Virus record (IMG/VR): IMGVR_UViG_3300028591_000093
Coordinates: 16,765-80,764 of that record
Direction: 5' to 3' (one strand)
DNA from: a virus
Taxonomy: Duplodnaviria > Heunggongvirae > Uroviricota > Caudoviricetes
DNA length: 64,000 bases
Of the stretch, positions 4,258 to 63,612 are shown one piece after another (positions within the stretch are counted from its first letter, which is position 1; each line of letters begins with the position of its first letter). The translations under genes and the position numbers were made by a program. A model generated the notes under the pieces. It made no database searches, had not been told where the DNA came from, and worked only from the letters and a program-made list of their open reading frames with translations.

Positions 4258-5707
4258 TAAGAATTAAACAAGAGCATGTTAAAATAATAGAGGCTGTATT
4301 TACAGCATTCTCTAAAGAAGTCTTAACAACTTCATATGGGTCTATCACACCTTCATTATATAAGTCATTTACCCATTTTCTAGTTTTAAAGTTATAACCT
4401 TGCCAATCTTGTGGGCATGGAATAACTTGTTCATTAGGACCAAAACAGTTCTTATATAATATATAATAAGGAGTAGTCAATACTTCTCTCAAGTACTTCA
4501 ATTGACTACCTAAATTAGTAGAAGCATCAAAAAGTGCTGTTCCACCACCAGGAAGAACTCCTCCTCTTAAAGCGGCTCTAGTAGCACCTACAGCATCTTC
4601 TACTCTATCCAATCTTTCTTTAACTTCTATCTCAGAGTAACCACCTACATAAATAGTGGCAATGCCTGCTGTGAAGTTAGCAAGTCTCTTTCTCTGGAAT
4701 TCTAAGTCTCCTTCATCAAGATTACCTTTTTCTAAAAGTCCTTGAATTGCTGTTACTTTTTCAGATACAGCTTGTTCATTACTTTTATATCCTACAAAGG
4801 TACAAGTATCAGCAGTAGCTACAACTTTATCACAATAAAGTGTATCTCCAAGAATATCTCTAATATCAGAAAGCAGAATACTTCTCTGGATACCAAAGTT
4901 AGGAGCAACTACCATACAGGAGTCTAACTTATGTAAGTTATTTAAAAGATTTATTTTTATCTCAGAATCAAAATCTGGAGCAATAAGCAATAGAGCTTTT
5001 TTCTTTCTGAGAGCTTCATTAGCTACCTCAGCAATTTTGGTAATCTCACTAATCTTTGTATCTGAGATGTATATCATTACATTGTTAAGTACACAAGTGT
5101 TTTCAGCAGTATTTACAAATCTGGAATCAAAGTAACCATTGTCAAATTGAAAACCTTCAGAGAATTCAATACCATCTGAGTTAGTTTTAGATTTCTCAAA
5201 CTTAACAATTCCATTCTTGCCTACTTTCTTAAAAGCTTCAGCAACAAGTGCACCTATTTTAATATCGTTGTTTGCAGAAAGTGTAGCAACTTTAGTTAAG
5301 TCATCAAGAGTAATATCTCTTTTATGTTCTTTTAACCAATCTACAACTTTCTTGCAATCTTCTTGTAAATCTCTTTGTATCTCTATAGGATTTTCCTTAC
5401 TATTACAAAGACTATTTACAATCTTGTTAGAAAGAATGGTAGCAGTAGTGCTACCATCTCCAATATCATTAGAAGTTTTTCTTGAAATATCTCTAACTGC
5501 ATCTATACCCATTTGAACAAAAGGATTCTCATGAGTAACATAAGTTGCTACAGTACTACCATCTTTAGTAACATGTAAATGTCTGCCAAGCTTAATCATT
5601 ACATTCTTACCACTTGGACCATAAGTAGCAGCAACACAATTAGAAACTAAATTTACACCTTTAATTAAAGATTCTCTGCATTCTTCAGTAAATTGTACAT
5701 TTTCCAT
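4250..5707 (-). CDS. groL: GroEL-like chaperonin (Cpn60), shortened C-terminus
   Basis: 485 aa. ATYGPSGKNVMIKL...VTKDGSTVA...NDIGDGSTTATILS parallels GroEL TLGPKGRNVVL...ITKDGVSVA...NDAAGDGTTTATVLA. Confidence 0.75.
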   Translation of the reverse strand: MENVQFTEECRESLIKGVNLVSNCVAATYGPSGKNVMIKLGRHLHVTKDGSTVATYVTHENPFVQMGIDAVRDISRKTSNDIGDGSTTATILSNKIVNSLCNSKENPIEIQRDLQEDCKKVVDWLKEHKRDITLDDLTKVATLSANNDIKIGALVAEAFKKVGKNGIVKFEKSKTNSDGIEFSEGFQFDNGYFDSRFVNTAENTCVLNNVMIYISDTKISEITKIAEVANEALRKKKALLLIAPDFDSEIKINLLNNLHKLDSCMVVAPNFGIQRSILLSDIRDILGDTLYCDKVVATADTCTFVGYKSNEQAVSEKVTAIQGLLEKGNLDEGDLEFQRKRLANFTAGIATIYVGGYSEIEVKERLDRVEDAVGATRAALRGGVLPGGGTALFDASTNLGSQLKYLREVLTTPYYILYKNCFGPNEQVIPCPQDWQGYNFKTRKWVNDLYNEGVIDPYEVVKTSLENAVNTASIILTCSCLILNA

Positions 5708-9149: not shown

Positions 9150-9221
9150 TGCAGCAGAAAGGATTCAAACCCTCCACTCCTGGTTGGAGGCCAGGTATGT
9201 TGTCACTAACACCACTACTGC
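9150..9221 (-). tRNA. tRNA-Gly(TCC)
   Basis: Acceptor GCAGTAG/CTGCTGC with one GU pair, anticodon arm CCTGG-CCTCCAA-CCAGG, T-loop TTTGAAT. Confidence 0.7.
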
Positions 9222-13856: not shown

Positions 13857-13872
13857 ATATTGTATAATTTAG

Positions 13873-13959
13873 TCGCCCCTGAGGGACTCGAACCCTCACT
13901 TCTTCCAACAGAAGGACATGGTTTTAGAGACCAGCACACTACCATTATGTTAAGGGGCA
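13873..13959 (-). tRNA. suppressor tRNA, anticodon CTA (reads UAG), type II with long variable arm, discriminator A
   Basis: Acceptor TGCCCCT/AGGGGCG, D-arm ACAT-AATGGTA-GTGT, anticodon arm CTGGT-CTCTAAA-ACCAT, variable arm CTTCT-GTTGGA-AGAAG, T-arm GAGGG-TTCGAGT-CCCTC. Confidence 0.7.
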
Positions 13960-21734: not shown

Positions 21735-21804
21735 AGTATATTAGCTCAGTTGGTAGAGCACTACAGAGATGTAGCGGTCGGAGGTTCAAGTCCTTCATAT
21801 ACTC
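21735..21804 (+). ncRNA. tRNA-like RNA with canonical acceptor, D- and T-arms but a truncated anticodon arm (5-bp stem, 4-nt loop); pseudo-tRNA or Y-RNA-like
   Basis: AGTATAT/ATATACT acceptor, GCTC-AGTTGGTA-GAGC, CTACA-GAGA-TGTAG, GGAGG-TTCAAGT-CCTTC. Only 70 nt long. Confidence 0.45.
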
Positions 21805-21888
21805 CTTTGGTGAGAGTGGGGTTAGACTCACAAACAAAACAGATATGTGCTCACAGAATCTATATTACTAAAAAGTATATAAACTACA

Positions 21889-29964: not shown

Positions 29965-30081
29965 ATAACAACTGAGTAATAAGAGTTCTAACTTGACAAA
30001 GAGAGTGAATGACTGTCTTTTGGATTGTAGCATATATTTTAAAAAAAGAATCAGTCAAGGATTCTCTCTTATTACTAAACT

Positions 30082-30219
30082 GGGGAGATGGTGAAATTTT
30101 TGAACAACCTCTTATGTATTTCTTCCTGAAAGGGATTGTCAACATGAGAGTTACTTCTATGGTTATACACGCTTTTTATTGGAAAAAAGATTCTCCTGGT
30201 TCGAGTCCAGGTCTCCCCA
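30082..30219 (+). ncRNA. 138-nt tRNA-like RNA: perfect 7-bp acceptor GGGGAGA/TCTCCCC with discriminator A and canonical T-arm, but about 107 nt in place of the D and anticodon arms (Y-RNA-like or tRNA with a large insertion)
   Basis: CCTGG-TTCGAGT-CCAGG T-arm. Internal 8-bp helix CTCTTATG/CATGAGAG. Contains a copy of the GGATTGTCA-N7-AGTTACTTC motif. D-region lacks GG. Confidence 0.45.
30132..30156 (+). promoter_or_regulatory. copy of the conserved motif GG(T/A)TGTCA-N6-7-(G/A)GTTACTTC
   Basis: One of four copies. This one lies inside the tRNA-like element. Confidence 0.3.
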
Positions 30220-30243
30220 CTTAATTTAAAAACAATTAAAAAT

Positions 30244-33980: not shown

Positions 33981-33988
33981 TCTAAGGA

Positions 33989-34013
33989 GGGTTGTCACAG
34001 AGAGGGTTACTTC
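33989..34013 (+). promoter_or_regulatory. conserved motif GGTTGTCA-CAGAGAG-GGTTACTTC abutting the tRNA-Thr 5' end
   Basis: Motif copy. The tRNA position 1 follows directly. Confidence 0.35.
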
Positions 34014-34087
34014 GTTTTATTAGCTCATTTGGTAGAGCACAAAAATTGGTAATTTTGGGGTACCTTGTTCAACTCAAGGATGAAACT
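34014..34087 (+). tRNA. tRNA-Thr(GGT)
   Basis: Acceptor GTTTTAT/ATGAAAC, D-arm GCTC-ATTTGGTA-GAGC, anticodon loop region ATTGGTAA, T-arm CCTTG-TTCAACT-CAAGG. Confidence 0.65.
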
Positions 34088-34132
34088 TTTATATCCCTTT
34101 CTACCTCTCTCCCTCCTTTTTACTATAAAGCA

Positions 34133-34156
34133 GGTTGTCAAATATGGAGTTACTTC
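34133..34156 (+). promoter_or_regulatory. conserved motif GGTTGTCA-AATATG-GAGTTACTTC overlapping the tRNA-Arg(CCT) 5' end
   Basis: Motif copy. Confidence 0.35.
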
Positions 34157-34226
34157 TTTTAGCTCAGCTGGATAGAGCATTTGCCTCCTAAGCAAAGTGT
34201 CGGTGGTTCAATTCCACTAAAGAAAT
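34153..34226 (+). tRNA. tRNA-Arg(CCT)
   Basis: D-arm GCTC-AGCTGGATA-GAGC, anticodon arm TTTGC-CTCCTAA-GCAAA, T-arm GGTGG-TTCAATT-CCACT. First acceptor pair is mismatched. Confidence 0.65.
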
Positions 34227-34267
34227 CCTTAAACACTCTATATTATTTCTCCTGCTTTTCCCATAGG

Positions 34268-34290
34268 GGATGTCAGTGTAAAGTTACTTC
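34268..34290 (+). promoter_or_regulatory. conserved motif GGATGTCA-GTGTAA-AGTTACTTC, about 108 nt upstream of the tmRNA
   Basis: Motif copy. Confidence 0.3.
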
Positions 34291-34397
34291 TATAATTAGC
34301 GTCATGGTTTGCCAATAACTGAAAAATACTTTGCTCTTTTTCTCCCCTTTTTACAATAGGAGAGGGTGGAGTTAATACCTCATCCTCTTTCTTATTA

Positions 34398-34771
34398 GGG
34401 CCTATTTGGTTTTGACAGCATTATATGATTAATGGGAACATGCAAAGAGAGTACTGCTCTAAATTACGGTACAAAAAATAAATGCTAGCAGAAGAAGACC
34501 TGTTAGATTGGTTGCCTAAGCTTAGGCTTACTTAACTGTAAACTAGCTTATTATGGCATAACCTGGGTAATTATACCTGGAAACAGAAAATAATTGACAT
34601 TGTGGAAAGACACATTTAACTTTCTTCAAAGTATAAATGAAGTGGTGGAGTGGCTAGTTGCCAAACCAATTAGCCCCTGTGGGTAAAGTAACCACATTAA
34701 AAAGAACTAAGCATGTAAAGTTTCCTATTAGTTGATATTGTTGGACCTGGGTTCGACTCCCAGTAGGTCCA
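34398..34771 (+). ncRNA. ssrA: tmRNA (SsrA), about 374 nt. Predicted tag reading frame GCT AGC AGA AGA AGA CCT GTT AGA TTG GTT GCC TAA, giving (A)SRRRPVRLVA
   Basis: 5' GGGCCTA pairs with 3' TAGGTCC plus discriminator A next to the T-arm CTGGG-TTCGACT-CCCAG. The segment AACTAAGCATGTA matches the conserved E. coli tmRNA segment CUAAGCAUGUAG. Resume codon lies at nt 87, preceded by AAAAAATAAAT as in E. coli AAAAAAUAGUC. Confidence 0.6.
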
Positions 34772-35307
34772 CTGGTCCTTGAGGTTTTTGTTTCTCTGTT
34801 AGTTTTTCTACGATTTTTCCTAGCAGAGTTTTTGTTTTTCCTCAAGAGTAGGTCTCTCCATCCCTATATAAAAAAGATGGTATCTATATAGACATAAGTC
34901 CACAATTAAGGAGGTCATTGTAGTGATACAGAATAGGCAAAAGCTATTTGTCAGAGAGCCTTGCTCACTAGGTTAAGACAAACTACATAATAAGCTAGAA
35001 TAAAAGTATGGAGACTCAGAGCACCTAGTATGGCAGTCTATAACCATAGGTATTTATATACTTTATTTTACTGTGTTTGGGCAAACACTTGAAACGGCAT
35101 CCTAGTTTGGAGGTTTAAAAGTTAAAACCTTCTGCGAGCATAGGCATCCCTTCACTGGGAAAGTTATGCTCAACATCTGGTGTTAAGTAGCACCTAAAAT
35201 ATACTTCTTATGTGATTCAATGGTTAATATTGTGTTTTTGTTTGCGCGGTGACTCTAGGCAAGATGGGTTGTGAAACTAGTCTTGCCACCTTCTTTTTCT
35301 AAAGTTT

Positions 35308-36519
35308 ATGAAAAATGTAAAAATATATGCAAAAACAGTTGAAGATGAGGCAATGTTACAAATTCAAAACATGTCTTTATCTGATGCTTATGGAGAATGT
35401 CCTGTAAGAATAATGCCTGATTGTCATGCAGGTGCAGGATGTACAATTGGTACTGTAATAGGTATTAAAGATAGAGTTGTACCTAATACAGTTGGAGTAG
35501 ATATAGGATGTGGAATGTTGGTTGTTCCTTTAGGTAATATTGAGATTGATTTAGCAGCTCTAGATAATTTCATTAAAACTGAAATACCTTCTGGATTCAA
35601 TATCAATGAACAGTTTCTTGGTAAAAGTTTTTATCATCCTAGTACACTTACTCAATTTAAATGTCAAGAAGTTATAGATGCTGATATGGCTTTAAAGTCT
35701 ATTGGTAGTCTTGGAGGAGGTAATCATTTTATTGAAGTTGATATAAATGAAAATGATGAAAAATTTCTTGTAATTCATACTGGTAGTAGAAATCTTGGTG
35801 TAAGAGTATGTAAGTATTATCAAGAAAAAGCTATAAAGAGTTGTAAAGCAAAGAGAACTGATTTTATAGAAATTATTAACAGTCTTAAAGAACAAGGAAG
35901 ACAGTCTGAAATCAATGCTACTCTTGCACAAATTAAAGCAACTCAATCACCTTTCAATGCTGAATTGGCATATCTTGAAGGTAAAGACCTTGAGGATTAT
36001 CTTAATGATATGAGATTATGTCAAGGATATGCTTCTTGTAATAGAAGAGCAATTGCTATTAGAATTCTTGATTTCTTAGGACTTTCTAATCTTCTTTCTG
36101 ATTTCTTAGAAGGACATGATAAATCTTTTACAACTATTCATAATTATATTGATTTACCACATAAGATTCTTAGAAAAGGTGCTGTGAGTGCACTTAATGG
36201 AGAAAAGCTTATTATTCCTATTAACATGAGAGATGGTTCTCTTATCTGTATAGGTAAAGGTAATCTTGATTGGTTGTATTCTGCACCTCATGGAGCAGGT
36301 AGACTTATGTCTAGAAAGAAAGCAAAAGAAAGTCTTAAAGAAGAGGACTTTATTGAAGCAATGAAAGGTATTTATACAACTACAGCAACTAAAGATACTA
36401 TTGATGAAGCACCTATGGTATATAAACCGATGGATGAAATCATGGAGTGTATCAAAGATACTGTAGATGTTGTAGATATTATTAAACCTATATATAATTT
36501 TAAAGCAGCAGAGCAATGA
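35308..36519 (+). CDS. rtcB: RtcB-family RNA 3'-phosphate/2',3'-cyclic phosphate ligase
   Basis: 403 aa. RIMPDCHAGAGCTIG and VGVDIGCGM match the RtcB metal-binding motifs. Confidence 0.75.
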   Translation: MKNVKIYAKTVEDEAMLQIQNMSLSDAYGECPVRIMPDCHAGAGCTIGTVIGIKDRVVPNTVGVDIGCGMLVVPLGNIEIDLAALDNFIKTEIPSGFNINEQFLGKSFYHPSTLTQFKCQEVIDADMALKSIGSLGGGNHFIEVDINENDEKFLVIHTGSRNLGVRVCKYYQEKAIKSCKAKRTDFIEIINSLKEQGRQSEINATLAQIKATQSPFNAELAYLEGKDLEDYLNDMRLCQGYASCNRRAIAIRILDFLGLSNLLSDFLEGHDKSFTTIHNYIDLPHKILRKGAVSALNGEKLIIPINMRDGSLICIGKGNLDWLYSAPHGAGRLMSRKKAKESLKEEDFIEAMKGIYTTTATKDTIDEAPMVYKPMDEIMECIKDTVDVVDIIKPIYNFKAAEQ

Positions 36520-36968
36520 TAAATAATCAAATTGATAAACTTATCATGGAGGCTATGAAGTCTCATGAGAATGTAAGAAAAGAGGCTTTAAGAGCAATTA
36601 AAGCTGCTTTCTTATTATGGAGAACTCAGAAAGAAAATGTTAATAAACCATTTACTGATGAAGTAGAAATTCAAATCATCAAGAAAATGGTAAAACAAAG
36701 AGAGGATTCTATTGAGCAATTTAAACAGGCTAATAGAATGGATTTAGTTGAGGCAGAAGAAGCACAACTTAAAGTTCTTAAAGAGTTTTTACCAGTAGAA
36801 GCAACTAGGGAAGACATTTTGAAATGTTTCAATGATGTAATTGGACAAGATGGTTTTGAGCCTGTAAAGAAGAACATGGGTGTCATTATCAAAACAATAA
36901 AAGGTTCACTTCCTAATGCTGATGGCAAATTAGTTGCAGAAGTTGTACAAGAATTTTTAAACAAATGA
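36516..36968 (+). CDS. GatB/YqeY-domain protein
   Basis: 150 aa. NVRKEALRAIKAAFLL and overall size and pattern match YqeY. ATGA overlap with rtcB. Confidence 0.5.
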   Translation: MINNQIDKLIMEAMKSHENVRKEALRAIKAAFLLWRTQKENVNKPFTDEVEIQIIKKMVKQREDSIEQFKQANRMDLVEAEEAQLKVLKEFLPVEATREDILKCFNDVIGQDGFEPVKKNMGVIIKTIKGSLPNADGKLVAEVVQEFLNK

Positions 36969-39551: not shown

Positions 39552-40397
39552 ATGAAATATAGGTTTTTAGCTAAAGAAACAACTGAAGCTCTTATAAAGT
39601 ATTTACAATCTTGGTTTGAACAAAATGGACCAGGATGTAATGCTGTAATAGGTATATCAGGAGGTAAAGACTCTACTATTGCAGCAGCACTCTGTGTAAA
39701 AGCTTTAGGTGCTGAAAGAGTCATAGGTGTATTGTTGCCAAATGGTGTTCAACATGATTTCAATATAGCACAGAAAGTGTGTGAAACTCTTGGAATCAAG
39801 AACCTGTCTATTCCTATTGGGACTATCTTTGAAGAATTCCAGGATAGATATAAGATGGCAAATGTACACAATACTCTTAATGAAGTAACTGAGCAAGCAA
39901 GAATTAACTTAGCTCCTAGAATTAGGATGACTATGTTAAGATATGTAGCACAAGCAAATAATGGCAGATTGATTAACACTTCTAACTTATCTGAAGACTG
40001 GGTTGGTTATGCAACTGTTGATGGAGATAGTGCAGGAGATGTATCACCATTATGTATGCTTACTGTACAAGAAGTAAAAGCTATTGGACATGAACTTGGA
40101 CTTCCTGCTGAACTTGTTGAGAAAGTTCCTGAAGATGGACTTGTTGGTACATCTGATGAACAAACACTTGGAATCACTTACAAAGATATAGACACCTATA
40201 TCAGAGAAGGTGAAGGAAGTGCTGAAGTAATTGAAAAGATTAACAAAAAGTTTGAAGCAAACAAGTTCAAGATTTATAGAATGGCAAGTATGCCTTGCTT
40301 CTGGCCTGAAATTGAAATGTTGTTTGACTTAACTGAAAAGCCTACCAATGTAGAGATAATGTCTCTAGGTATGGCTAAAGACCCAAGATTCCAATGA
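39552..40397 (+). CDS. nadE: NH3-dependent NAD+ synthetase
   Basis: 281 aa. VIGISGGKDSTIAAAL gives the PP-loop SGGxDS. Overall NadE pattern. Confidence 0.7.
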   Translation: MKYRFLAKETTEALIKYLQSWFEQNGPGCNAVIGISGGKDSTIAAALCVKALGAERVIGVLLPNGVQHDFNIAQKVCETLGIKNLSIPIGTIFEEFQDRYKMANVHNTLNEVTEQARINLAPRIRMTMLRYVAQANNGRLINTSNLSEDWVGYATVDGDSAGDVSPLCMLTVQEVKAIGHELGLPAELVEKVPEDGLVGTSDEQTLGITYKDIDTYIREGEGSAEVIEKINKKFEANKFKIYRMASMPCFWPEIEMLFDLTEKPTNVEIMSLGMAKDPRFQ

Positions 40398-40945
40398 GAA
40401 AGGTTCTTATTTTGATTGATTGTCAAAATGATTTCTGTGCACAAGGTGGTGTTTTGGCAAATAAAGAGTCTATTGCAATTGCAAAAGACATTGCTAAAAC
40501 ATTACCTGAGCTTATTTCTGAAAAAGGTTTTGACTATATTCTTGCTACAAGAGATACTCATTATAGGCAATCTTATGATGTCACAGTAGAAGGTAAACAT
40601 TTACCTGTTTTACATTGTATATGTGAAACTGCTGGTTGGTGTCTAAGAGATGATATTATGGAAGCTCTTGACAATTGTCAAGTTCCTAAAAAGTTTATAA
40701 ACAAACATACATTTGGTTATAACAATTGGGAACAAATAATTGGTTCAGATAAGTCAGAAATAAGAGAGTTCTATTTAGTAGGATTCTGTACTGATATTTG
40801 TGTTGTTACCAATGCTCTTGTTCTCAAGACATTATACCCTAATTCAGAAGTGTATGTCTATGAAGGACTGACAGCAGGTGTAACTCCTGAAAAGAAAGAG
40901 GCAGCTATTGAGACAATGAGAAGCTGCCACATAAACATTATTTGA
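40394..40945 (+). CDS. pncA: nicotinamidase/pyrazinamidase (isochorismatase fold)
   Basis: LILIDCQNDF (Asp), GFCTDICV (catalytic Cys), 183 aa. ATGA overlap with nadE. Confidence 0.65.
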   Translation: MRKVLILIDCQNDFCAQGGVLANKESIAIAKDIAKTLPELISEKGFDYILATRDTHYRQSYDVTVEGKHLPVLHCICETAGWCLRDDIMEALDNCQVPKKFINKHTFGYNNWEQIIGSDKSEIREFYLVGFCTDICVVTNALVLKTLYPNSEVYVYEGLTAGVTPEKKEAAIETMRSCHINII

Positions 40946-41020
40946 TATGGACAATATTGTTGAGATGGCAAGTTTTATTGCAGGTGTAACAGTTGGTTTC
41001 GCTTCAATGTTTCTTTTCTT

Positions 41021-41230
41021 ATGAGTGAAAATGCTAAAACAAATATAACTATAAGTTTCAATCTTCCACTTATTTTAACAATTGCTTTCTTTATTGCTAA
41101 GGTGACAGAGAAAATTGATTGGAATTGGTGGTGGGTATTTAGTCCTTTGTGGATTACTGGAACTTTAGTTGTTTTAATGTTTATAATCTACATAATTATT
41201 CAATGCTTTTCGTCAACAAAATACCTGTAA
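41021..41230 (+). CDS. small membrane protein (69 aa)
   Basis: ORF track. Two TM helices. Confidence 0.35.
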   Translation: MSENAKTNITISFNLPLILTIAFFIAKVTEKIDWNWWWVFSPLWITGTLVVLMFIIYIIIQCFSSTKYL

Positions 41231-42033
41231 AGGTAGAACATTTCCAGGATGGTACTCAAAAGATAAATATGCCAGATTTTGGTGTAAATGCTTTTCATAT
41301 AGTATGGAAGTATCATTGTGATGAAGAATTAGTCACATTGATATTTGTTTGTGGTTATCTCAGAGATAATTATCAAGACTGTACTATATCTCTGGAAATG
41401 TTGTATGTTCCTAATGCTAGAATGGACAGAGTAGAAGAAAGAGGAGATGTCTTTACCCTTAAGTATTTCTGCAATGTTATTAACAGTTTACAGTTTGAAA
41501 GTGTAACAGTTTTTGATACTCATTCAAAAGTAACTGATGCTCTAGTTGATAGGATGTGTAAAATACCAACTGATGTATCATTGAAAGAAGCCCTTGATGT
41601 TATACATAGTGGGATGTTTGATGATAAATTCAGTAAGGTTACAATTGTATTTCCTGATAGAGGTGCTTATGATAGATACAGTTCTCTTGAAATCTTAAAG
41701 CCTTTTAGAAAGGTAATAGGAAACAAATCAAGAGACTGGAAAACTGGCACTTTGCAAGACCAGGAGCTATATGGAGTAGATACATTGGAGACAGGTATTC
41801 CTGTTCTGATTATTGATGACATATTATCCTCAGGTGGTACCATCTGTAAGACTATTGCAAATATCAGGGAAAAAGTGAATTGTCCAATTTATGTATATGC
41901 TTCCCACTGTGAGAATAAACTTATAGAAGATAATACAGAGAATTGGCAATACATTCTAAGTAATGTAACAAAATTGTTTACAACAAATGGGATATATTCT
42001 CATGAAATTGAAAAGGTTGTGATATTATGGTAG
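41203..42033 (+). CDS. prs: ribose-phosphate pyrophosphokinase (PRPP synthetase)
   Basis: FQDGTQKINM, YVPNARMDRVEERG (compare Prs YARQDRK), VFDTHS (compare DLHA) and PRPP-binding VLIIDDILSSGGTICK. Start taken at the internal ATG 41203. Confidence 0.6.
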   Translation: MLFVNKIPVKVEHFQDGTQKINMPDFGVNAFHIVWKYHCDEELVTLIFVCGYLRDNYQDCTISLEMLYVPNARMDRVEERGDVFTLKYFCNVINSLQFESVTVFDTHSKVTDALVDRMCKIPTDVSLKEALDVIHSGMFDDKFSKVTIVFPDRGAYDRYSSLEILKPFRKVIGNKSRDWKTGTLQDQELYGVDTLETGIPVLIIDDILSSGGTICKTIANIREKVNCPIYVYASHCENKLIEDNTENWQYILSNVTKLFTTNGIYSHEIEKVVILW

Positions 42034-43208
42034 CAATAAACCCTGCAAGTATGTTGGATAATGACCTCTATAAGTTTAGCATGAGCTATGCTTATATGAA
42101 GTTATTTCCTGAAGCAGAGGGTACATTTGTTTTCTGTGATAGAGGTAAAACAGAGTATACTGCTAAATTTGTAACCGCTTTGCAACAAGAGTTACATAGA
42201 CTGGCAGAAAGAATGTTGTCTAATGCAGAGAGACAATGGTGTGTACAAAACATACCATACATTCCTGAGTGGTATTGGGAATGGTTAGAGTCTTTCTATT
42301 TTAATCCAAACTTAATTAAACTTTCCCTTGAGAAAGATGGTGAGTTGAAGATTGAAGTTACAGATAAACTTTATAAAGTTACTCTGTATGAGGTACCTAT
42401 TCTCTATACAGTTGCAGAAACATACTATAAAATCTATGGTAAATCTCTAACTGTTGACCAGTATCAAGAGATATGTAGAAAAACTGAAGAGAAATGTAAG
42501 ATTGCTGAAGAAGCAGGATTTAAATTCTCTGAGTTTGGTACCAGAAGAAGATATAGTTATGAAGTACAAGATACAGTTGTAGCTGTTTGTAAGAACTCTA
42601 CATCCTGCGTCGGTACTTCAAATGTACATCTTGCAATGAAATATGACATGAAACCTATTGGAACTGTAGCACATGAATGGGTAATGTTTCATGGTGCTAT
42701 GTATGGTTACAATGAGGCTAACTACATGGCATATAAAAACTGGGTAAAGGTTTATGATGGCAATCTTGGTATTGCTTTAACTGATACCTATACTTCTAAA
42801 GTCTTTTTCAAGAATTTTTCTTTACAACATGCAAAATTGTTTGATGGTATAAGACAAGATTCTGGAGATGAGAAAGACTTTGTTGAGAGAGCACTAGTTA
42901 GATATGATGAGTTAGGTATCAACCCACTCACAAAAACTATAGTGTTCTCTAATGCTTTGGATTTTCCAAAAGCTGCTCAAATTGCTGAATACTGTAAAGG
43001 AAAGATAAAAGCTTCCTTTGGTATAGGCACTAATCTTACCAATGATATTGAAGGTGTACAGCCTAGAAATATTGTCATGAAGTTAATGCATTGCAGAATG
43101 AACCCAAGACAAGAATGGGTAAATTGTGTAAAGATTTCTGATGACATTGGTAAAGTAATGGGAGCAGATGAGGAAGTAAAAACTGCTATTTATAAATTAG
43201 GTCTATGA
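42027..43208 (+). CDS. pncB: nicotinate phosphoribosyltransferase
   Basis: 393 aa. N-terminal LDNDLYKFSM and EFGTRRR signature of PncB. Confidence 0.65.
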   Translation: MVAINPASMLDNDLYKFSMSYAYMKLFPEAEGTFVFCDRGKTEYTAKFVTALQQELHRLAERMLSNAERQWCVQNIPYIPEWYWEWLESFYFNPNLIKLSLEKDGELKIEVTDKLYKVTLYEVPILYTVAETYYKIYGKSLTVDQYQEICRKTEEKCKIAEEAGFKFSEFGTRRRYSYEVQDTVVAVCKNSTSCVGTSNVHLAMKYDMKPIGTVAHEWVMFHGAMYGYNEANYMAYKNWVKVYDGNLGIALTDTYTSKVFFKNFSLQHAKLFDGIRQDSGDEKDFVERALVRYDELGINPLTKTIVFSNALDFPKAAQIAEYCKGKIKASFGIGTNLTNDIEGVQPRNIVMKLMHCRMNPRQEWVNCVKISDDIGKVMGADEEVKTAIYKLGL

Positions 43209-43681
43209 GAAATTTTCCAGTAGAACATGAAGGAAAAACCTACTGGATAAGTAGGTCTGTAGCAGTTGCAGGTTTCATCTTCACCAAAGATAGTCAAGGA
43301 AATTGGTTAGTTCTTGCAAATAAGAGAGGACCAGGTTGTCCTGATAATGTTGGTAAATGGGTTTGTCCTTGTGGATACCTAGATTATGATGAAACCCTCA
43401 AAACAGCTATTATAAGAGAAGTTTATGAGGAAACAGGAGTTCTTGTACCTGCTGATAAACTTCAATTTGCAGGTATAGATGATGTACCTGAAGGTAGACA
43501 AAACTTAACAGTAAAATTTACTGCATATCTTGGTTCTGATTCACCTGCTGTGAAGATGTTATCTAAAGAGCATTGTGAACCAGATGAGGTAGATGAAGTT
43601 ATGTGGATACCAGTAGCTAAAGCAGGTGAGTATGATTGGGCTTTTGGACATTATGAACTAATTAGGAGTTTTGTACCATGA
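43205..43681 (+). CDS. Nudix hydrolase (ADP-ribose/NADH pyrophosphatase-like)
   Basis: Nudix box GYLDYDETLKTAIIREVYEETGV. ATGA overlap. Confidence 0.65.
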   Translation: MRNFPVEHEGKTYWISRSVAVAGFIFTKDSQGNWLVLANKRGPGCPDNVGKWVCPCGYLDYDETLKTAIIREVYEETGVLVPADKLQFAGIDDVPEGRQNLTVKFTAYLGSDSPAVKMLSKEHCEPDEVDEVMWIPVAKAGEYDWAFGHYELIRSFVP

Positions 43682-44265
43682 ACCCAAAAGTAGCTCATCT
43701 ATTTCTTACAGACAAGTGCACTAATCAGTGTCCTATGTGCTGTAACAACAACTACACTGTAGACAGTATTCCTTTTATAACAAAAGAGGAGTTGTCTACA
43801 GTGGAAACTGTTTGTTTAACAGGTGGTGAACCTTTTCTTCTAGATAATCTTTATGGGATTGTAAATGTAATAAGTTCTTTTGCTAAGAATATCTATGTTT
43901 ATACTTCAGGTTATGAGTTACTCTATTACTTGAAAAAACATACCTTACCTTGTATAACTGGAATTTCCATTTGTCCAAAAGGTAAAAAAGATTGGGATGC
44001 ATTACAAGAACTTATACACAATACAAGAGCTAGATTGAGGATTTCAGAATGTAGTAATAGACTATATGTTCTTTTAAAACAAGAAGATAGAGCTAACTAT
44101 GTTACTGAAACTGATATTAGTTTGAGGGCAATTGAACATTTTGCTGAAGAGTTAAATGCTAAGATATTGTTCAGAACTTGGCTTCCTGAAATTACATCTC
44201 CAGATGGAGAGATATTTAGAAGAGTTAATTTAGAGGATTTAAAACAATGGAAATCAGAACTATAA
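43678..44265 (+). CDS. small radical SAM protein (QueE/NrdG-size)
   Basis: CTNQCPMC Cx3Cx2C motif and LTGGEPFL SAM motif. 195 aa. ATGA overlap. Confidence 0.5.
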   Translation: MNPKVAHLFLTDKCTNQCPMCCNNNYTVDSIPFITKEELSTVETVCLTGGEPFLLDNLYGIVNVISSFAKNIYVYTSGYELLYYLKKHTLPCITGISICPKGKKDWDALQELIHNTRARLRISECSNRLYVLLKQEDRANYVTETDISLRAIEHFAEELNAKILFRTWLPEITSPDGEIFRRVNLEDLKQWKSEL

Positions 44266-44879
44266 GAGGAAGAGCTGTCTTATATGGAGGTTCTTTCAAT
44301 CCTATACATAATGGACATATAGAAGCAATACAAATGCTCTTAGATAGAAGAGATACCAATGGTATGTACTATTATAATAAGGTAATTGTAGCTCCAAGCT
44401 TTGCAAGTCCTTTTAAGGAGTTTAATGTGTGTTTTGCAGACAGATTTGAAATGGCTGCAACTTCTATAAAAAGAGTAATAGGAGATGAAAGAGTAGAAGT
44501 CATCTTTGATAGTAATGCATCGCCATTATTTCAATATACTTACTATTTCCTAAAGCATCTATCTCTTAAGTATTCTGATTATTCCATTGATTTAGCTATA
44601 GGTGCAGATTGTCTTGCACAAATAACTAAATGGGCATGTTTTAAAGACATACTTTATCAGTTTGATATTGTAGTAATACCTAGAGAAGGAGTTGAAATGA
44701 AAGTTCCTGAGGGATTAACTCTAGCTAGAAGTATTACTAAAATGTCAGAAATTCCTTCTAATATAAGTTCAACCTATATCAGACAATGTATTGATGAGTG
44801 TAATCCAGAATGGAAAACACTTGTTCCTAAATATGTTGCTGATTATATTCAAAAACATCATCTATATGACTGTAGTTAA
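44247..44879 (+). CDS. nadD: nicotinate-nucleotide adenylyltransferase
   Basis: YGGSFNPIHNGH (HxGH nucleotidyltransferase motif) and C-terminal ISSTYIR (NadD ISSTxIR motif). 210 aa. Confidence 0.7.
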   Translation: MEIRTIRGRAVLYGGSFNPIHNGHIEAIQMLLDRRDTNGMYYYNKVIVAPSFASPFKEFNVCFADRFEMAATSIKRVIGDERVEVIFDSNASPLFQYTYYFLKHLSLKYSDYSIDLAIGADCLAQITKWACFKDILYQFDIVVIPREGVEMKVPEGLTLARSITKMSEIPSNISSTYIRQCIDECNPEWKTLVPKYVADYIQKHHLYDCS

Positions 44880-45372
44880 TCGGACAGGAAATCTATTAGA
44901 TTCAGAAGCACAGATAATCATGCACCAAGTAAATGATGCTGGTGTAATGGGGAGTGGAGTTGCTGCTGCTATTGCACACAAGTGGCCTTATGTACAAGAA
45001 CAATACACTGTTCTTATGCAACAAGGTGGCCTTAAACTAGGTGTTGTACAGGTTGTTGAGCATGAACAATGTGTAGAAGGACAGGAAGAACCAAACTATC
45101 CTTACATTGCAAATTTGTGTGCTCAAGACTTATACCAAAAAGAGCATTCTTTCTTGAGTATAGGATGTCCTACAAGTTATGATGCTTTGTGGATGTGCCT
45201 AGTTAAATTGGCAAAAATCTGTGAAGAAAACAAAATAAGAACAATTGCAATGCCTTATCTCATGAGTTCTTGTAGAGGTGGTGCTAACTGGAATGTAGTA
45301 CATTCTATGGTTCTAGCAGCATTTGAAAACCTTGATATTACTATTGAGATTTGGCAGTTGCCAAAAGAATAG
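44866..45372 (+). CDS. macro-domain protein (ADP-ribose binding or hydrolysing)
   Basis: IMHQVNDAGVMGSGVAAAIAHKWP resembles the macro-domain NAANxxLxGGGGVxGAI motif. Start at the internal ATG 44866 just before the nadD stop. Confidence 0.55.
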   Translation: MTVVNRTGNLLDSEAQIIMHQVNDAGVMGSGVAAAIAHKWPYVQEQYTVLMQQGGLKLGVVQVVEHEQCVEGQEEPNYPYIANLCAQDLYQKEHSFLSIGCPTSYDALWMCLVKLAKICEENKIRTIAMPYLMSSCRGGANWNVVHSMVLAAFENLDITIEIWQLPKE

Positions 45373-61995: not shown

Positions 61996-63612
61996 ATGTC
62001 AAGATTTAGCAAAATGAATGTAGGAGTTCTTGCTACTACTAAAGTACAAGCTCCTAACACTGTTAATAGACAAGGACATGCTGCTTATGCATTAGGAGAT
62101 GAGTTAAAACTTTTATCAGCACTGAATGTTCTCAAGTTAGAACAACAGTACTATAGAGGTGTTAACCAACAAATGCTAGAAGTTATTGAACTTGTTGAAA
62201 AAGTGGCAAGGAAAGACCCTTATTTGGCTGCACAATGTATTGTGTATTCTAGATGGGAGGGAGAAGGTTTAAGAAGTGTAAATCATTTAGCAGCAGCCGC
62301 ATTGGCTGATTACATTGCTGGAAGAGAATGGGCTAAGAGATTTTACAGTTCTTATGATAAAAAGAACAAGAGAGGTGGATGTATATGTAGACCTGATGAT
62401 ATGTCTGAGATTAAGATGATTTATTTCGCTATGAATGCTCCTCATAAACTCAGTATGGCAATGAAGAAAGGTTTCAAGAACTATATTGAAGCATTGTCAC
62501 CATATCAGATGTTTAAATATAAAAAGCCTGTTATTGATATATCTAACTTAGTACATCCAAATCCTAATGTTACAGAAGACATTGAGGCTGAAGGTAGAAG
62601 AGTTAAGTCATTAACTGCTCTCATGACTGGTATGCATGTTGCTGCTAATACATGGGAGACTAGACAGTCTGCTGCTGGACAAGAAATAGCAGAACAAGTA
62701 AAAAGAGGTGAAATATCTGCACAAGAGGCTGAGTTGGCTCTTGACCAGGCTAAGAGTGAAAACTGGAATGACATGTTGATGAACAATCAACTTGGTATTC
62801 TTGCTGCTCTTAGAAACATAAGAAACATTCTCAAGACTGCTAACATCAATTCTATCAAGAAACTTTGTGGAATGTTAGAAGATGCTAAAAGAATCAGAGA
62901 AGGTAATATTATGCCACAACAGATAGATGTAGCCTATGACATTGTTATGGATGAATTTGCAAGTACTCAGACTGGTAAATTGATAGCTGCTTCCTTGATA
63001 AAAGGATATGAACTGTCTACTACTAATCTTGGTCCTGCATTGCCAGGTAGAAATTTGGTTATCTTAGATTGCTCAGGCTCTATGGGTTGGAGTAATGTAT
63101 ATGACCTTAGAAAGAAATCTGCTGGTAGAAATACAGTTCTGGATAAAGCATCACTTGTAGCTGCTACTATTTTAAAAGCAACTGGTGGTGATTTAATTGT
63201 ATTTGGTAGTGGTGCAAGAGAAGGTACCTATAATCCTATGCAAAATGTATTTGAGATTGCAAGAAGTCTCAGAAATACCAGCATGGGTGGTACTAACTTA
63301 GCTTCTGCTTTTGATTTAGTAGCTAAGAATTGGAACAATATCAAGTATAACAGAATTTTCATTCTTTCTGACAATGAATGCAATCAGGGTAGTAATGTAC
63401 AAGCTTATAAGAGATTACTGTCTAAATGTAGTGCAGATGAAATGCCTTACATTTACTCAGTAGATATGGCTGCATATGGTACTACTCCTATTAAACATGA
63501 TGGTAGAGTTAACTACTATTATGGCTTTGGATATGCAATGTTTGATGATGTAGCTAAACTGGAGTTCAATCCACAAGCTCACATTGAAAAAGTTAAACAG
63601 ATTGTCATTTAA
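61996..63612 (+). CDS. rsr: Ro60-like ribonucleoprotein (TROVE domain plus C-terminal vWA domain)
   Basis: 538 aa. N-terminal NRQGHAAYALGDELKLLSAL...YYRGVN...DPYLAAQCIVYSRWEGE fits the TROVE pattern. C-terminal LVILDCSGSM gives the vWA MIDAS DxSxS motif. Confidence 0.6.
   Translation: MSRFSKMNVGVLATTKVQAPNTVNRQGHAAYALGDELKLLSALNVLKLEQQYYRGVNQQMLEVIELVEKVARKDPYLAAQCIVYSRWEGEGLRSVNHLAAAALADYIAGREWAKRFYSSYDKKNKRGGCICRPDDMSEIKMIYFAMNAPHKLSMAMKKGFKNYIEALSPYQMFKYKKPVIDISNLVHPNPNVTEDIEAEGRRVKSLTALMTGMHVAANTWETRQSAAGQEIAEQVKRGEISAQEAELALDQAKSENWNDMLMNNQLGILAALRNIRNILKTANINSIKKLCGMLEDAKRIREGNIMPQQIDVAYDIVMDEFASTQTGKLIAASLIKGYELSTTNLGPALPGRNLVILDCSGSMGWSNVYDLRKKSAGRNTVLDKASLVAATILKATGGDLIVFGSGAREGTYNPMQNVFEIARSLRNTSMGGTNLASAFDLVAKNWNNIKYNRIFILSDNECNQGSNVQAYKRLLSKCSADEMPYIYSVDMAAYGTTPIKHDGRVNYYYGFGYAMFDDVAKLEFNPQAHIEKVKQIVI

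What the first reader, a model, noticed from the sequence alone, without database searches (positions are those of the whole stretch)
30082..30219. 138-nt RNA gene with tRNA ends but about 107 nt replacing the D and anticodon arms
It has a perfect GGGGAGA/TCTCCCC acceptor, discriminator A and a canonical T-arm. There is no GG D-loop and no anticodon arm. There is an internal 8-bp helix (CTCTTATG/CATGAGAG) and an embedded copy of the motif that otherwise precedes tRNA genes. Candidates are a Y-RNA-like partner for Ro60, a tRNA with a non-canonical intron, or a decoy for tRNA-targeting enzymes.
Basis: seen in the sequence. Interest (0 to 1): 0.6.

Follow-up and report, generated by a model that had tools for sequence, protein, structure and literature searches.

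The report
tRNA carrying a Ro60-type Y-RNA stem
This 138-nt phage RNA gene is a complete tRNA body (Gln-type in relatives) whose D loop carries a 56-nt stem-bulge-stem hairpin, and that hairpin matches the RNA module found next to Ro60 genes in many other phages, so it is most likely a tRNA/Y-RNA hybrid that partners the phage's own Ro60 protein.

Summary
Acceptor stem, discriminator, T arm, the 9-bp inner helix and the repeated motif are all present. An anticodon arm, a 3-bp D stem and the D-loop GG are present too. Five ortholog variants from related phages pair at all 36 modelled positions, 10 of them with compensatory double changes.

Four variants carry a clean CUG (Gln) anticodon loop. 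The window copy has a derived UGG loop with one extra U.

The extra sequence is a 56-nt hairpin (30102-30157) in the D loop. The same module recurs three more times in the window, around tRNA-Thr, around tRNA-Arg, and as a minimal RNA just 5' of tmRNA.

In 14 loci fetched only by Ro60 protein similarity, its GUUACUUC signature occurs 48 times on the Ro60 strand against about 2 expected. A covariance model built from those foreign modules picks the D-loop insert as the best hit in the window.

Motif order matches published YrlA-type Y RNAs. The window also encodes Ro60 and RtcB.

Best reading: a tRNA/Y-RNA chimera with inverted topology. An intron removed before tRNA use is not excluded.

The parts
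30082..30219 (+). Whole RNA gene: tRNA body with a D-loop insertion. No CCA is encoded; the 3' flank is CTT.
   Evidence: Sequence. The MFE fold equals the cloverleaf plus extension. Five ortholog variants pair at 36 of 36 positions, 10 with compensatory changes.
30082..30088 (+). Acceptor stem 5' strand GGGGAGA. It pairs with 30212-30218 (TCTCCCC); discriminator A is 30219.
   Evidence: Three of the 7 pairs change on both sides among variants: GGGGAGA/UCUCCCC, GGGGGAG/CUCCCCC, GGGGGAA/UUCCCCC.
30091..30093 (+). D stem 5' strand GTG. It pairs with CAC at 30168-30170.
   Evidence: Invariant in all 5 variants, so it is uninformative for covariation. It is present in the MFE fold.
30102..30157 (+). 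Y-RNA-type module inserted in the D loop. In order: H0 GAA/UUC (30102-04 with 30155-57); loop CAAC opposite UUAC (30151-54); H1 (30109-17 with 30142-50); internal loop AUUUCU (30118-23) opposite UUGUCA (30136-41); H2 UCCU/GGGA (30124-27 with 30132-35); GAAA cap (30128-31).
   Evidence: Best hit in the whole window for covariance models built only from Ro60-adjacent modules of other phages: 24.5 bits, E about 0.004 with neutral linkers, and 32.4 bits with a GAAA linker. H1 and H2 show compensatory changes among orthologs.
30158..30167 (+). 3' part of the D loop, UAUGGUUAUA, with G18/G19-like GG at 30161-30162.
   Evidence: UGG(U) is conserved in all five variants. It resembles the AAUGGUUA D loops of other tRNAs of this phage.
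30172..30189 (+). Anticodon arm. In the window copy it reads C-U-UUUU / AUUGGAA / AAAAG: an extra U and anticodon position UGG (30180-30182). Relatives have CUUUU-AUCUGAA-AAAAG or CAAAA-UUCUGGU-UUUUG, both with anticodon CUG.
   Evidence: Four of the 5 stem pairs flip U-A to A-U between variants. Seven of the differences between lineages A and B fall within 28 nt here, against 2.3% background divergence.
30195..30211 (+). T arm CCTGG-TTCGAGT-CCAGG.
   Evidence: Canonical T-loop sequence; the stem is invariant in all variants.
33984..34118 (+). Second module copy in open topology. AAGGAGGG-UUGUCA-C-AGAGAGGG-UUAC-UUC, then the complete tRNA-Thr(GGU) at 34014-34087, then CCCUUUCU-ACCUCUCU-CCCUCCUU.
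34127..34258 (+). Third module copy enclosing tRNA-Arg(CCU) (34153-34228). AAAGCAGG-UUGUCA-AAUAUGGAG-UUAC ... CUCUAUAUU-AUUUCU-CCUGCUUU.
   Evidence: Both helices are perfectly complementary.
34266..34347 (+). Fourth copy, a minimal Y-like RNA with a 38-nt loop. It lies 51 nt 5' of tmRNA (34398-34772).
61996..63612 (+). Ro60 homolog (TROVE plus vWA domains), the presumed protein partner. It is on the same strand, 31.8 kb downstream.
   Evidence: Pfam VWA_2 2.9e-5 and TROVE 5.9e-4. BLASTP E = 1e-33 to the L096 Ro60, which itself hits TROVE at 4.8e-25. PDB 9KOP/9L5Y, the phage phiLo Ro60, at E = 8e-9.
35308..36519 (+). RtcB RNA ligase. Context gene for an RNA-repair island, and the ligase that the intron alternative would need.
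   Evidence: Pfam RtcB 1.5e-62.

Best explanation
**What it is.** The gene encodes a stable RNA of about 138 nt that is a hybrid of a tRNA and a Y RNA.

- The body is a tRNA cloverleaf: a 7-bp acceptor stem with free ends, a T arm, an anticodon arm, and a D stem with the GG.
- It derives from a tRNA-Gln(CUG). The window lineage has since altered the anticodon loop.
- A 56-nt stem-bulge-stem hairpin grows out of the D loop. It is the same module that forms the Ro60-binding stem of YrlA-type Y RNAs encoded beside Ro60 genes in other phages.
- The topology is inverted relative to those RNAs. There the tRNA-like part sits inside the Y stem; here the Y stem sits inside the tRNA.

**Proposed working.**
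1. RNase P and 3' trimming with CCA addition make the ends, as shown experimentally for the 7-bp 'acceptor' of M. smegmatis YrlA. This step is inferred.
2. The phage Ro60 (61996-63612) binds the UUGUCA/AUUUCU bulged helix. This is inferred from homology of the module.
3. The tRNA body serves as the effector or protective domain. It would link Ro60, and any exonuclease Ro60 recruits, to tRNA-handling machinery. This would be part of the phage's tRNA, tmRNA, RtcB and Ro60 RNA maintenance set. This step is speculative.

**Shown:** the fold, its conservation, the identity of the module, and its genomic linkage to Ro60 genes.
**Not shown:** the transcript, Ro60 binding, and any activity.
For: 1. 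**Real structured RNA.** All 36 pairs are 100% paired across 5 variants. Ten pairs carry double changes, located in the acceptor stem, the anticodon stem, H1 and H2. None of 500 shuffles matched this.
2. **The module is a repeated unit.** There are 4 copies in the window against 0 expected. All fold to the same H2 / loop / H1 / UUAC architecture, with unrelated helix sequences.
3. **Linkage to Ro60, found from both directions.**
   - A blind pattern scan of IMG/VR found contig L096. It carries 4 copies immediately 5' of, and on the same strand as, a Ro60 gene.
   - In 14 loci fetched only by Ro60 similarity, GTTACTTC occurs 48 times on the Ro60 strand (1.9 expected) and 2 times on the other strand. 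It is present in 13 of 14 loci, and 38 of the 48 lie within 2.5 kb of Ro60.
   - It is also present in the GenBank phages csAssE-Sib (OR575929) and LR745206, directly 5' of Ro60.
4. **Model test.** Covariance models built from 19 such foreign modules rank 30103-30157 first in the 64-kb window.
5. **Same element order as YrlA.** The published order is a 5' GNCGAAN0-1G motif, then a helix, then the conserved YUAY (PMC4201824 section 6). The Ro60-locus modules read UAGCGAA, UAGYAAN, UUGUAA or UUGUCA, then a helix, then UUAC. The phiLo Yrl RNAs are stem-bulge-stem with CGAA and bind phage Ro60 (PMC12135203).
6. **Partial Rfam YrlA hits** on module units with permuted tRNA-like cargo: 30.5 and 30 bits, E about 2e-4.
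7. **Precedent for free tRNA-like ends.** M. smegmatis YrlA is cut by RNase P and receives CCA while bound to Rsr (PMC4201824 section 8).
8. **The window lineage changed the anticodon arm but kept everything else.** Seven changes fall in 28 nt against 2.3% background. This argues for a function that does not depend on decoding.
9. **Ro60 and RtcB genes are in the window**.
Against: - No transcript or binding data exist for this RNA.
- In this phage the element lies 31.8 kb from the Ro60 gene, and no module lies within 8 kb of it. The published YrlA criterion of being within 4 kb is therefore not met here.
- The bulge motif is UUGUCA, not CGAA or GNCGAA.
- The Rfam YrlA model gives no hit on the element.
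- CUG with U33 is conserved in 4 of 5 variants despite flipped stems. This looks like selection on a real anticodon, and no other tRNA-Gln(CUG) is in the window. Both points fit a decoding tRNA, possibly after splicing.
- The covariance-model test is not fully independent. The training instances were ascertained through the UUACUUC tail, and their helices were chosen by complementarity.
Confidence: 0.55

Rival explanations
1. **Intron-containing tRNA.** The 56-64-nt insert is cut out of the D loop by an unknown endonuclease or ribozyme. The phage RtcB then joins the halves, giving a working tRNA-Gln(CUG), or tRNA-Pro(UGG) in the window lineage.
For: - Virtual deletion gives ARAGORN-valid tRNAs for many boundary pairs.
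- The CUG loop with U33 and a purine at 37 is conserved in 4 of 5 variants.
- This is the only Gln(CUG) candidate in the window.
- RtcB lies 5 kb downstream.
- In L096, joining at UUAC|UUC would recreate a perfect permuted tRNA-Arg(UCU).
- 'Enigmatic' tRNA introns have been reported in Lak megaphages (PMC6784885).
- The relative L166 has several tRNA genes with long insertions.
Against: - No bulge-helix-bulge motif is present.
- No Rfam ribozyme or intron family matches at E <= 10.
- No splicing endonuclease was found among 48 ORFs scanned.
- Cutting at the conserved module edges (GAA...UUC) leaves an 18-nt D loop that ARAGORN rejects.
- The same module encloses complete tRNAs and non-tRNA cargo, where splicing has no purpose.
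- The module clusters at Ro60 genes.
- All five variants keep the insert.
Confidence: 0.2
2. **Decoding tRNA that keeps the extension.** The RNA is aminoacylated and used on the ribosome. The D-loop hairpin acts as a protein handle, bound by Ro60 or another factor, that regulates or protects this tRNA, for example against host tRNA-targeting nucleases.
For: - The acceptor stem, T arm, GG and anticodon loop are all intact.
- The insert sits in the variable part of the D loop, between about positions 15 and 17. This placement is an inference from tRNA architecture.
- The phage carries many tRNAs and other tRNA mimics.
Against: - A 56-nt helix at the tRNA elbow would probably clash with ribosomal elbow contacts. 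This is an inference and was not tested.
- The window lineage has an irregular anticodon arm with an extra U.
- No tRNA model recognises the intact RNA.
Confidence: 0.1
3. **The module is not a Ro60 site.** It is instead a processing or stability signal for phage tRNA-cluster transcripts, such as an RNase III or RNase E site or the binding site of another protein. Its proximity to Ro60 genes would only reflect the fact that Ro60 genes sit inside tRNA arrays.
For: - Ro60 loci are embedded in large tRNA arrays.
- In the window the modules sit in the tRNA/tmRNA region, not beside Ro60.
Against: - In the Ro60 loci, 38 of 48 copies lie within 2.5 kb of Ro60, often immediately flanking it.
- The 11-tRNA array at 8.5-9.5 kb in the window has no module.
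- The motif order matches the experimentally Ro60-bound YrlA and Yrl RNAs (PMC4201824; PMC12135203).
Confidence: 0.1
4. **Dead tRNA gene or coding artefact.** Either a tRNA pseudogene disrupted by a stray repeat, or part of the 71-aa ORF at 30009-30224.
For: - Gene callers annotated a 71-aa ORF over the element on some contigs.
- The window copy has an aberrant anticodon loop.
Against: - Ten compensatory pairs are found across phages whose neighbouring proteins are only about 70% identical.
- Variant lengths differ by 1-5 nt, which is not a multiple of three, so no reading frame is kept.
- The ORF has no Pfam hit.
Confidence: 0.03

Closest known systems
YrlA-type bacterial and phage Y RNAs (Rfam RF02553; Chen et al. 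[quoted passage not shown]
   Same: - A Ro60-gene-linked RNA that combines a stem-bulge-stem Ro60 module with a tRNA-like domain (T arm and D-loop features).
- A YUAY (UUAC) follows the Ro60-side helix.
- M. smegmatis YrlA also ends up with an open 7-bp acceptor stem carrying CCA.
   Different: - The topology is inverted. The Y stem is a closed hairpin inside the D loop, and the RNA termini are the tRNA acceptor ends.
- A full anticodon arm is retained.
- The bulge motif is UUGUCA rather than GNCGAA.
- The Rfam model gives no hit.
- The gene is 31.8 kb from Ro60.
Phage phiLo Yrl1/Yrl2 with phiRo60 (PMC12135203; PDB 9KOP, 9L5Y)
   Same: - A phage-encoded Ro60 with phage-encoded stem-bulge-stem RNAs.
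- The window Ro60 is a detectable homolog of this protein (E = 8e-9).
   Different: - The phiLo RNAs are simple hairpins with a CGAA bulge, immediately 5' of the gene.
- They have no tRNA body.
Y-stem-embedded tRNAs and tRNA-like cargos in phage Ro60 loci (found here: window Thr and Arg units, L141-L155, csAssE-Sib tRNA-Tyr and tRNA-Lys)
   Same: The same module, with the same conserved loops and UUAC-UUC junction, and an association with tRNA sequences.
   Different: In those units the tRNA lies between the two strands of the stem. In the element the stem lies inside the tRNA.
Lak megaphage tRNA 'introns' (Devoto et al. 2019, PMC6784885, Table S6)
   Same: Oversized tRNA genes in large gut phages that are missed by bacterial tRNA finders. 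The insert is highly conserved.
   Different: - Lak inserts sit at position 37/38 of the anticodon loop.
- They are 79-114 nt long and contain a mini tRNA-like element.
- They lack GUUACUUC.
Archaeal and Cyanidioschyzon non-canonical tRNA introns and permuted tRNA genes (BHB / EndA / RtcB pathway)
   Same: - Insertions at non-anticodon positions, including the D loop.
- Permuted arrangements exist in related loci.
- An RtcB ligase is present.
   Different: - No bulge-helix-bulge geometry is present.
- No EndA homolog was found.
- This is a bacterial-type phage, since it encodes tmRNA.

Membership tests
Canonical tRNA (RF00005 / ARAGORN) | 7-bp acceptor stem, discriminator base, and T arm with a UUCRANY loop | tested here: met
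   Sequence. Compensatory changes occur in the acceptor stem.
Canonical tRNA (RF00005 / ARAGORN) | D arm with a 7-11-nt loop | tested here: not met
   The D stem (3 bp) and the GG are present, but the loop spans 74 nt: 18 nt plus the 56-nt hairpin.
Canonical tRNA (RF00005 / ARAGORN) | 5-bp anticodon stem with a 7-nt loop, U33 and a purine at 37 | tested here: inconclusive
   Met in variants B-E, which carry CUG. The window copy has an extra U, giving an 8-nt loop or a bulge, and UGG.
Canonical tRNA (RF00005 / ARAGORN) | Recognised by tRNA models | tested here: not met
   No ARAGORN call, even with introns allowed, and no Rfam tRNA hit at E <= 10. It is recognised only after virtual deletion of the insert.
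YrlA / bacterial Y RNA (RF02553) | Score at or above the Rfam gathering threshold (69 bits) | tested here: not met
   No hit on the element. Related units reach only 30 bits.
YrlA / bacterial Y RNA (RF02553) | Stem-bulge-stem with GNCGAAN0-1G / CGAA on one strand | tested here: inconclusive
   The architecture is present. The motif here is UUGUCA. Ro60-locus copies form a series UAGCGAA, UAGYAAN, UUGUAA, UUGUCA.
YrlA / bacterial Y RNA (RF02553) | Conserved YUAY after the Ro60-side helix, leading into the tRNA-like domain | tested here: met
   UUAC at 30151-30154. The position is UUAC or AUAC (YUAY/RUAY) in the collected copies, which were gathered through this very motif.
YrlA / bacterial Y RNA (RF02553) | RNA termini form the Ro60 stem, and the acceptor-like stem is closed | tested here: not met
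   Inverse arrangement: the termini are the acceptor stem, and the Ro60-type stem is capped by GAAA.
YrlA / bacterial Y RNA (RF02553) | Encoded within 4 kb of the Ro60 gene on the same strand | tested here: not met
   Same strand, but 31.8 kb away, and there is no module within 8 kb of Ro60. The feature is met by homologous modules in 13 of 14 other Ro60 loci.
YrlA / bacterial Y RNA (RF02553) | Bound by Ro60/Rsr | not testable with these tools
   Needs EMSA or RIP.
BHB-type tRNA intron (archaeal/eukaryal) | Bulge-helix-bulge motif (3-nt bulges flanking a 4-bp helix) at the splice sites | tested here: not met
   By inspection of the fold, the loops are 4x4 and 6x6 around a 9-bp helix.
BHB-type tRNA intron (archaeal/eukaryal) | Splicing endonuclease encoded or available | tested here: not met
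   None found among 48 window ORFs by Pfam. The host and the rest of the phage genome were not examined.
BHB-type tRNA intron (archaeal/eukaryal) | Excision restores a standard tRNA | tested here: inconclusive
   True for many arbitrary boundary pairs, but not for the conserved module edges.
Group I intron in tRNA / self-cleaving ribozymes | Match to the Rfam intron or ribozyme models | tested here: not met
   No such hit at E <= 10. The insert is only 56-64 nt.
Lak-phage tRNA introns | Insert at position 37/38 that contains a mini tRNA-like element | tested here: not met
   Table S6 sequences differ in position and content, and GTTACTTC does not occur in them.

The most novel reading that the evidence does not exclude
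Phage Ro60 may be a tRNA-handling factor. A family of phage Y RNAs physically fuses the Ro60-binding stem to real tRNAs, either with the tRNA inside the stem or with the stem inside the tRNA's D loop. Ro60, and the nucleases or RtcB it works with, would then be loaded directly onto specific phage tRNAs to mature, protect or repair them during infection. The element here could even be a chargeable tRNA-Gln that carries its own Ro60.
Probability: 0.3. Interest if true: 0.8.

Novelty: new variant of a known kind. Interest (0 to 1): 0.65.

Why it matters
**For Y-RNA biology.** What the tRNA-like domain of bacterial Y RNAs does is an open question. This finding adds two extreme forms of the idea: complete tRNAs enclosed by the Ro60 stem, and a Ro60 stem planted in a tRNA's D loop. 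Both occur in phages that also carry tmRNA and RtcB. Together they give concrete, testable RNAs for asking whether Ro60 acts on, or through, tRNAs.

**For annotation.**
- tRNA finders miss this class of gene.
- 'Plain' tRNAs next to phage Ro60 genes, such as tRNA-Tyr and tRNA-Lys in csAssE-Sib, are in fact embedded in Y-RNA stems.
- The 2014 YrlA census discarded hits that overlapped tandem tRNA genes. That filter may explain why this class has not been described.

Tried and rejected
- **blastn of the 1.5-kb region against INPHARED phages:** no match.
- **Exact 31-mer of the 3' end in IMG/VR:** no match.
- **The syntenic SPFH-gene relative L001:** no tRNA and no element there.
- **First motif scan (14 specified bases):** far too unspecific. 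It returned 119 or more chance loci, of which only L096 was real.
- **Promoter reading of the motif (TTGTCA as a -35 box):** rejected. The N8 segment always pairs with a partner strand, and the motif overlaps tRNA 5' ends.
- **Hammerhead or hairpin ribozyme reading:** rejected by inspection and by the absence of any Rfam ribozyme hit.
- **Permuted or split functional tRNA reading of the L096 unit:** weakened. Its ortholog in L142 has a degenerate closed acceptor stem. The equivalent hairpin in other loci has no fixed anticodon: UAA, UCA and UUA are seen.
- **Ro60 pattern scan of bacterial genomes:** found nothing.
- **Vibrio phage phiKT1024 Ro60 locus:** no module found by regex.
- **Lak phage intron sequences:** a different element.
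- **Protein-coding reading of ORF 30009-30224:** rejected because of frame-breaking indels.

Full report
**1. Observation**

The coordinates are exact.
- GGGGAGA (30082-30088) pairs with TCTCCCC (30212-30218), followed by discriminator A (30219).
- The T arm is CCTGG-TTCGAGT-CCAGG (30195-30211).
- ARAGORN finds 22 tRNAs and a tmRNA in the window but not this element. Rfam gives no hit on it, at gathering thresholds or at E <= 10.

- Directly 5' of a 5-nt variable loop (ATTCT) and the T arm lies a stem-loop at 30172-30189. That is where an anticodon arm belongs.
- GTG (30091-30093) pairs with CAC (30168-30170), closing a D region that still contains UAUGGUUAUA with the GG at 30161-30162.

The MFE fold of the 138 nt is exactly a cloverleaf with a long hairpin growing out of the D loop (-40.5 kcal/mol, z = -2.1).

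**2. Orthologs**

I fetched contigs through the neighbouring 101-aa and 168-aa proteins and their homologs at about 70% identity. This gave five distinct versions of the RNA.

On their alignment (A2), all 36 proposed pairs are paired in every sequence.
- Ten pairs change on both sides: 3 in the acceptor stem, 4 in the anticodon stem, 2 in H1 and 1 in H2.
- No shuffle of 500 reaches this.
- Sliding the partners drops pairing to 34-58%.

Lengths differ by 1-5 nt, so the overlapping 71-aa ORF is not conserved.

Four versions have a textbook anticodon loop, AUCUGAA or UUCUGGU. Both have U33 and anticodon CUG, on stems that are flipped between lineages (CUUUU/AAAAG versus CAAAA/UUUUG).

The window lineage is the exception. 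It has an extra U and reads AUUGGAA (UGG). Lineages A and B are 97.7% identical over 5.1 kb, yet 7 differences fall within 28 nt of this arm. B equals the more distant E here, so the window form is derived.

**3. What the insert is**

The 3' part of the insert, UUGUCA-N8-GUUACUUC, occurs four times in the window and never in 100 shuffles. The N8 segment always pairs with a partner strand, and a second helix follows. The common architecture is:

H2 - internal loop (UUGUCA opposite AUUUCU) - H1 - loop (UUAC opposite A-rich) - cargo.

- In the element the two strands are joined by a GAAA cap, and the 'cargo' is the tRNA on both sides.
- At 33984-34118 the strands flank a complete tRNA-Thr(GGU).
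- At 34127-34258 the strands flank a complete tRNA-Arg(CCU).
- At 34266-34347 they enclose only 38 nt, just 5' of tmRNA.

**4. Link to Ro60**

A blind pattern scan of IMG/VR returned mostly chance hits, plus contig L096.
- L096 carries four copies of the module at the end of a tRNA/tmRNA array.
- They lie immediately upstream of, and on the same strand as, a TROVE+vWA protein (TROVE 4.8e-25).
- That protein is 26% identical over its full length to the window's 538-aa protein.
- The window protein also matches the solved phage phiLo Ro60 (9KOP, E = 8e-9).

Going the other way, I fetched loci purely by Ro60 similarity.
- In 14 such loci (146,930 nt), GTTACTTC occurs 48 times on the Ro60 strand (1.9 expected) and twice on the other strand.
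- It is present in 13 of 14 loci. The fourteenth is truncated at the gene.
- 38 of the 48 copies lie within 2.5 kb of Ro60.

Each copy that duplex folding could parse has the same two-helix architecture. The cargos are of several kinds.
- Permuted T-arm / closed-stem / D-arm domains. These give partial Rfam YrlA hits of 30 bits, E about 2e-4.
- tRNA-like domains attached by a 4-bp CUUC/GAAG stem, whose 'anticodon' varies (UAA, UCA, UUA).
- Short loops.
- Complete tRNAs.

The published gut phage csAssE-Sib has three such units directly 5' of its annotated 'Ro sixty-related protein'. Two of them contain its annotated tRNA-Tyr and tRNA-Lys. The 635-kb phage LR745206 has two units.

**5. Model test**

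I took 19 modules from other phages, all parsed from loci carrying a Ro60 gene. I circularly permuted them into hairpins and built covariance models.
- With random linkers, the best hit in the whole 64-kb window, both strands, is 30103-30157. It aligns end to end at 24.5 bits, E about 0.004.
- With a GAAA linker the score is 32.4 bits, inflated by the linker.
- The next hits are the other module copies.

Caveats: the training copies were found through the UUACUUC tail, and their helices were picked by complementarity. The covariation table is therefore partly circular.

**6. Relation to known Y RNAs**

Chen et al. 2014 (PMC4201824) describe YrlA as follows.
- A 5' GNCGAAN0-1G Ro60 motif.
- A conserved YUAY that opens the tRNA-like domain.
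- T and D arms with a closed acceptor-like stem.
- Genes within 4 kb of Ro60 on the same strand, including in 22 phages.

They discarded hits that overlapped tandem tRNA genes.

The b strand of the module has the same order: [stem] - UAGCGAA / UAGYAAN / UUGUAA / UUGUCA - [helix] - UUAC. The phiLo Yrl RNAs, which bind phage Ro60 in vitro, are stem-bulge-stem with CGAA (PMC12135203).

M. smegmatis YrlA is cleaved by RNase P at its 7-bp acceptor-like stem and receives CCA while bound to Rsr. This produces a tRNA-like domain with free acceptor ends, which is the nearest described state to the present RNA.

The element fails several YrlA membership criteria: the Rfam score, the motif sequence, the topology and the distance to Ro60. 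I therefore file it as a new variant, not as a member.

**7. Intron alternative**

Deleting the insert in silico yields ARAGORN tRNA-Gln(CUG) for variants B, C and E, and tRNA-Pro(UGG) for the window copy.
- This works over a range of boundaries: 5' at nt 12-20, and 3' from -3 to +5 around the end of UUACUUC.
- It does not work for the conserved module edges.

In favour of splicing or decoding:
- RtcB is encoded 5 kb downstream.
- The anticodon is conserved in most variants.
- No other Gln(CUG) gene is in the window.

Against it:
- There is no BHB geometry and no ribozyme or intron family hit.
- No endonuclease was found among 48 ORFs.
- The module is used around complete tRNAs and non-tRNA cargo.
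- The window lineage has degraded the anticodon loop while keeping everything else.

Lak-phage tRNA introns are a different element.

**8. Verdict**

- Most likely (about 0.55): a stable tRNA/Y-RNA chimera that presents a Ro60-binding stem from the D loop of a tRNA-Gln-derived body.
- About 0.2: an intron that is removed.
- About 0.1: a decoding tRNA that keeps the handle.
- About 0.1: the module serves a protein other than Ro60.

The function beyond Ro60 binding is inferred only from context, namely the tRNAs, tmRNA, RtcB and Ro60 encoded together, and from the known roles of Ro60 and Y RNA with exonucleases.

Noticed in passing
window 33984-34118 and 34127-34258: Complete tRNA-Thr(GGU) and tRNA-Arg(CCU) genes are each enclosed by the two strands of the Y-type module. 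tRNA-Thr also has an extra A in its anticodon stem or loop, the same kind of irregularity as in the element.
   Followed up: partly
window 34266-34347: A minimal Y-like RNA (module plus a 38-nt loop containing CAUGGUUUG) lies 51 nt upstream of tmRNA (34398-34772). RtcB follows at 35308-36519.
   Followed up: partly
window 21735-21805: A tRNA-like gene scores 53 bits against the Rfam tRNA model, but its anticodon loop is replaced by a 4-nt GAGA loop on a 5-bp stem. ARAGORN reports 'tRNA-??? (ag)'. It looks like an anticodon-less tRNA mimic.
   Followed up: no
window 13872-13959 (- strand): An 88-nt tRNA with anticodon CUA and a long variable arm, which ARAGORN labels 'Pyl'. It is probably an amber suppressor and suggests TAG recoding, as in Lak-like gut phages. 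ORF calls made with code 11 may therefore be broken.
   Followed up: no
window 9150-9221 (- strand): A tRNA found by Rfam (43 bits) but missed by ARAGORN. Its anticodon loop is CCUCCAA, with C instead of U at position 33.
   Followed up: no
window 36516-36968: A YqeY / GatB-tail-like protein (Pfam 9.8e-30) sits directly after RtcB. From my own knowledge, the GatB tail domain reads the D loop of tRNA-Gln. That makes it a candidate partner for a tRNA-Gln-like RNA with an altered D loop.
   Followed up: no
window 39552-45372 and 60104-60595: A cluster of NAD-related genes: NAD synthase, isochorismatase/nicotinamidase-like, NAPRTase, NUDIX, a cytidylyltransferase-like (NMNAT-type) protein, a Macro domain protein and CinA. 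It looks like an NAD+ salvage or counter-defence set.
   Followed up: no
L166 2840-3970 and 6650-6990: A more distant relative has at least five oversized or permuted tRNA genes that ARAGORN misses. They include a D-loop insert in an Ile(GAU)-like gene, an anticodon-loop insert and a permuted Ser-like gene. All carry a related UAC-UUAC-AA motif.
   Followed up: partly
L146, L149, L151, L152, L154, L155 (within about 1 kb of Ro60): Ro60 genes in these IMG/VR phages are flanked by tandem arrays of 3-5 Y-like units with different cargo types. One recurrent type is a tRNA-like domain with a 4-bp CUUC/GAAG acceptor stem, followed by a CGCGAAAGCG hairpin.
   Followed up: partly
L172 (OR575929.1, csAssE-Sib) 4490-4990: The annotated tRNA-Tyr and tRNA-Lys directly 5' of the 'Ro sixty-related protein' are embedded in Y-type stems. 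A third unit is YrlA-like. None of this is annotated in the record.
   Followed up: partly
L157 1822-1883: An Rfam 'freshwater-1 RNA' hit (81.7 bits, above the gathering score) lies inside a phage tRNA array near a Ro60 gene.
   Followed up: no
window 30047-30065: The hairpin AGAATC-AGTCAAG-GATTCT lies 16 nt upstream of the element's 5' end. It could be a processing or terminator-like structure of the upstream gene.
   Followed up: no
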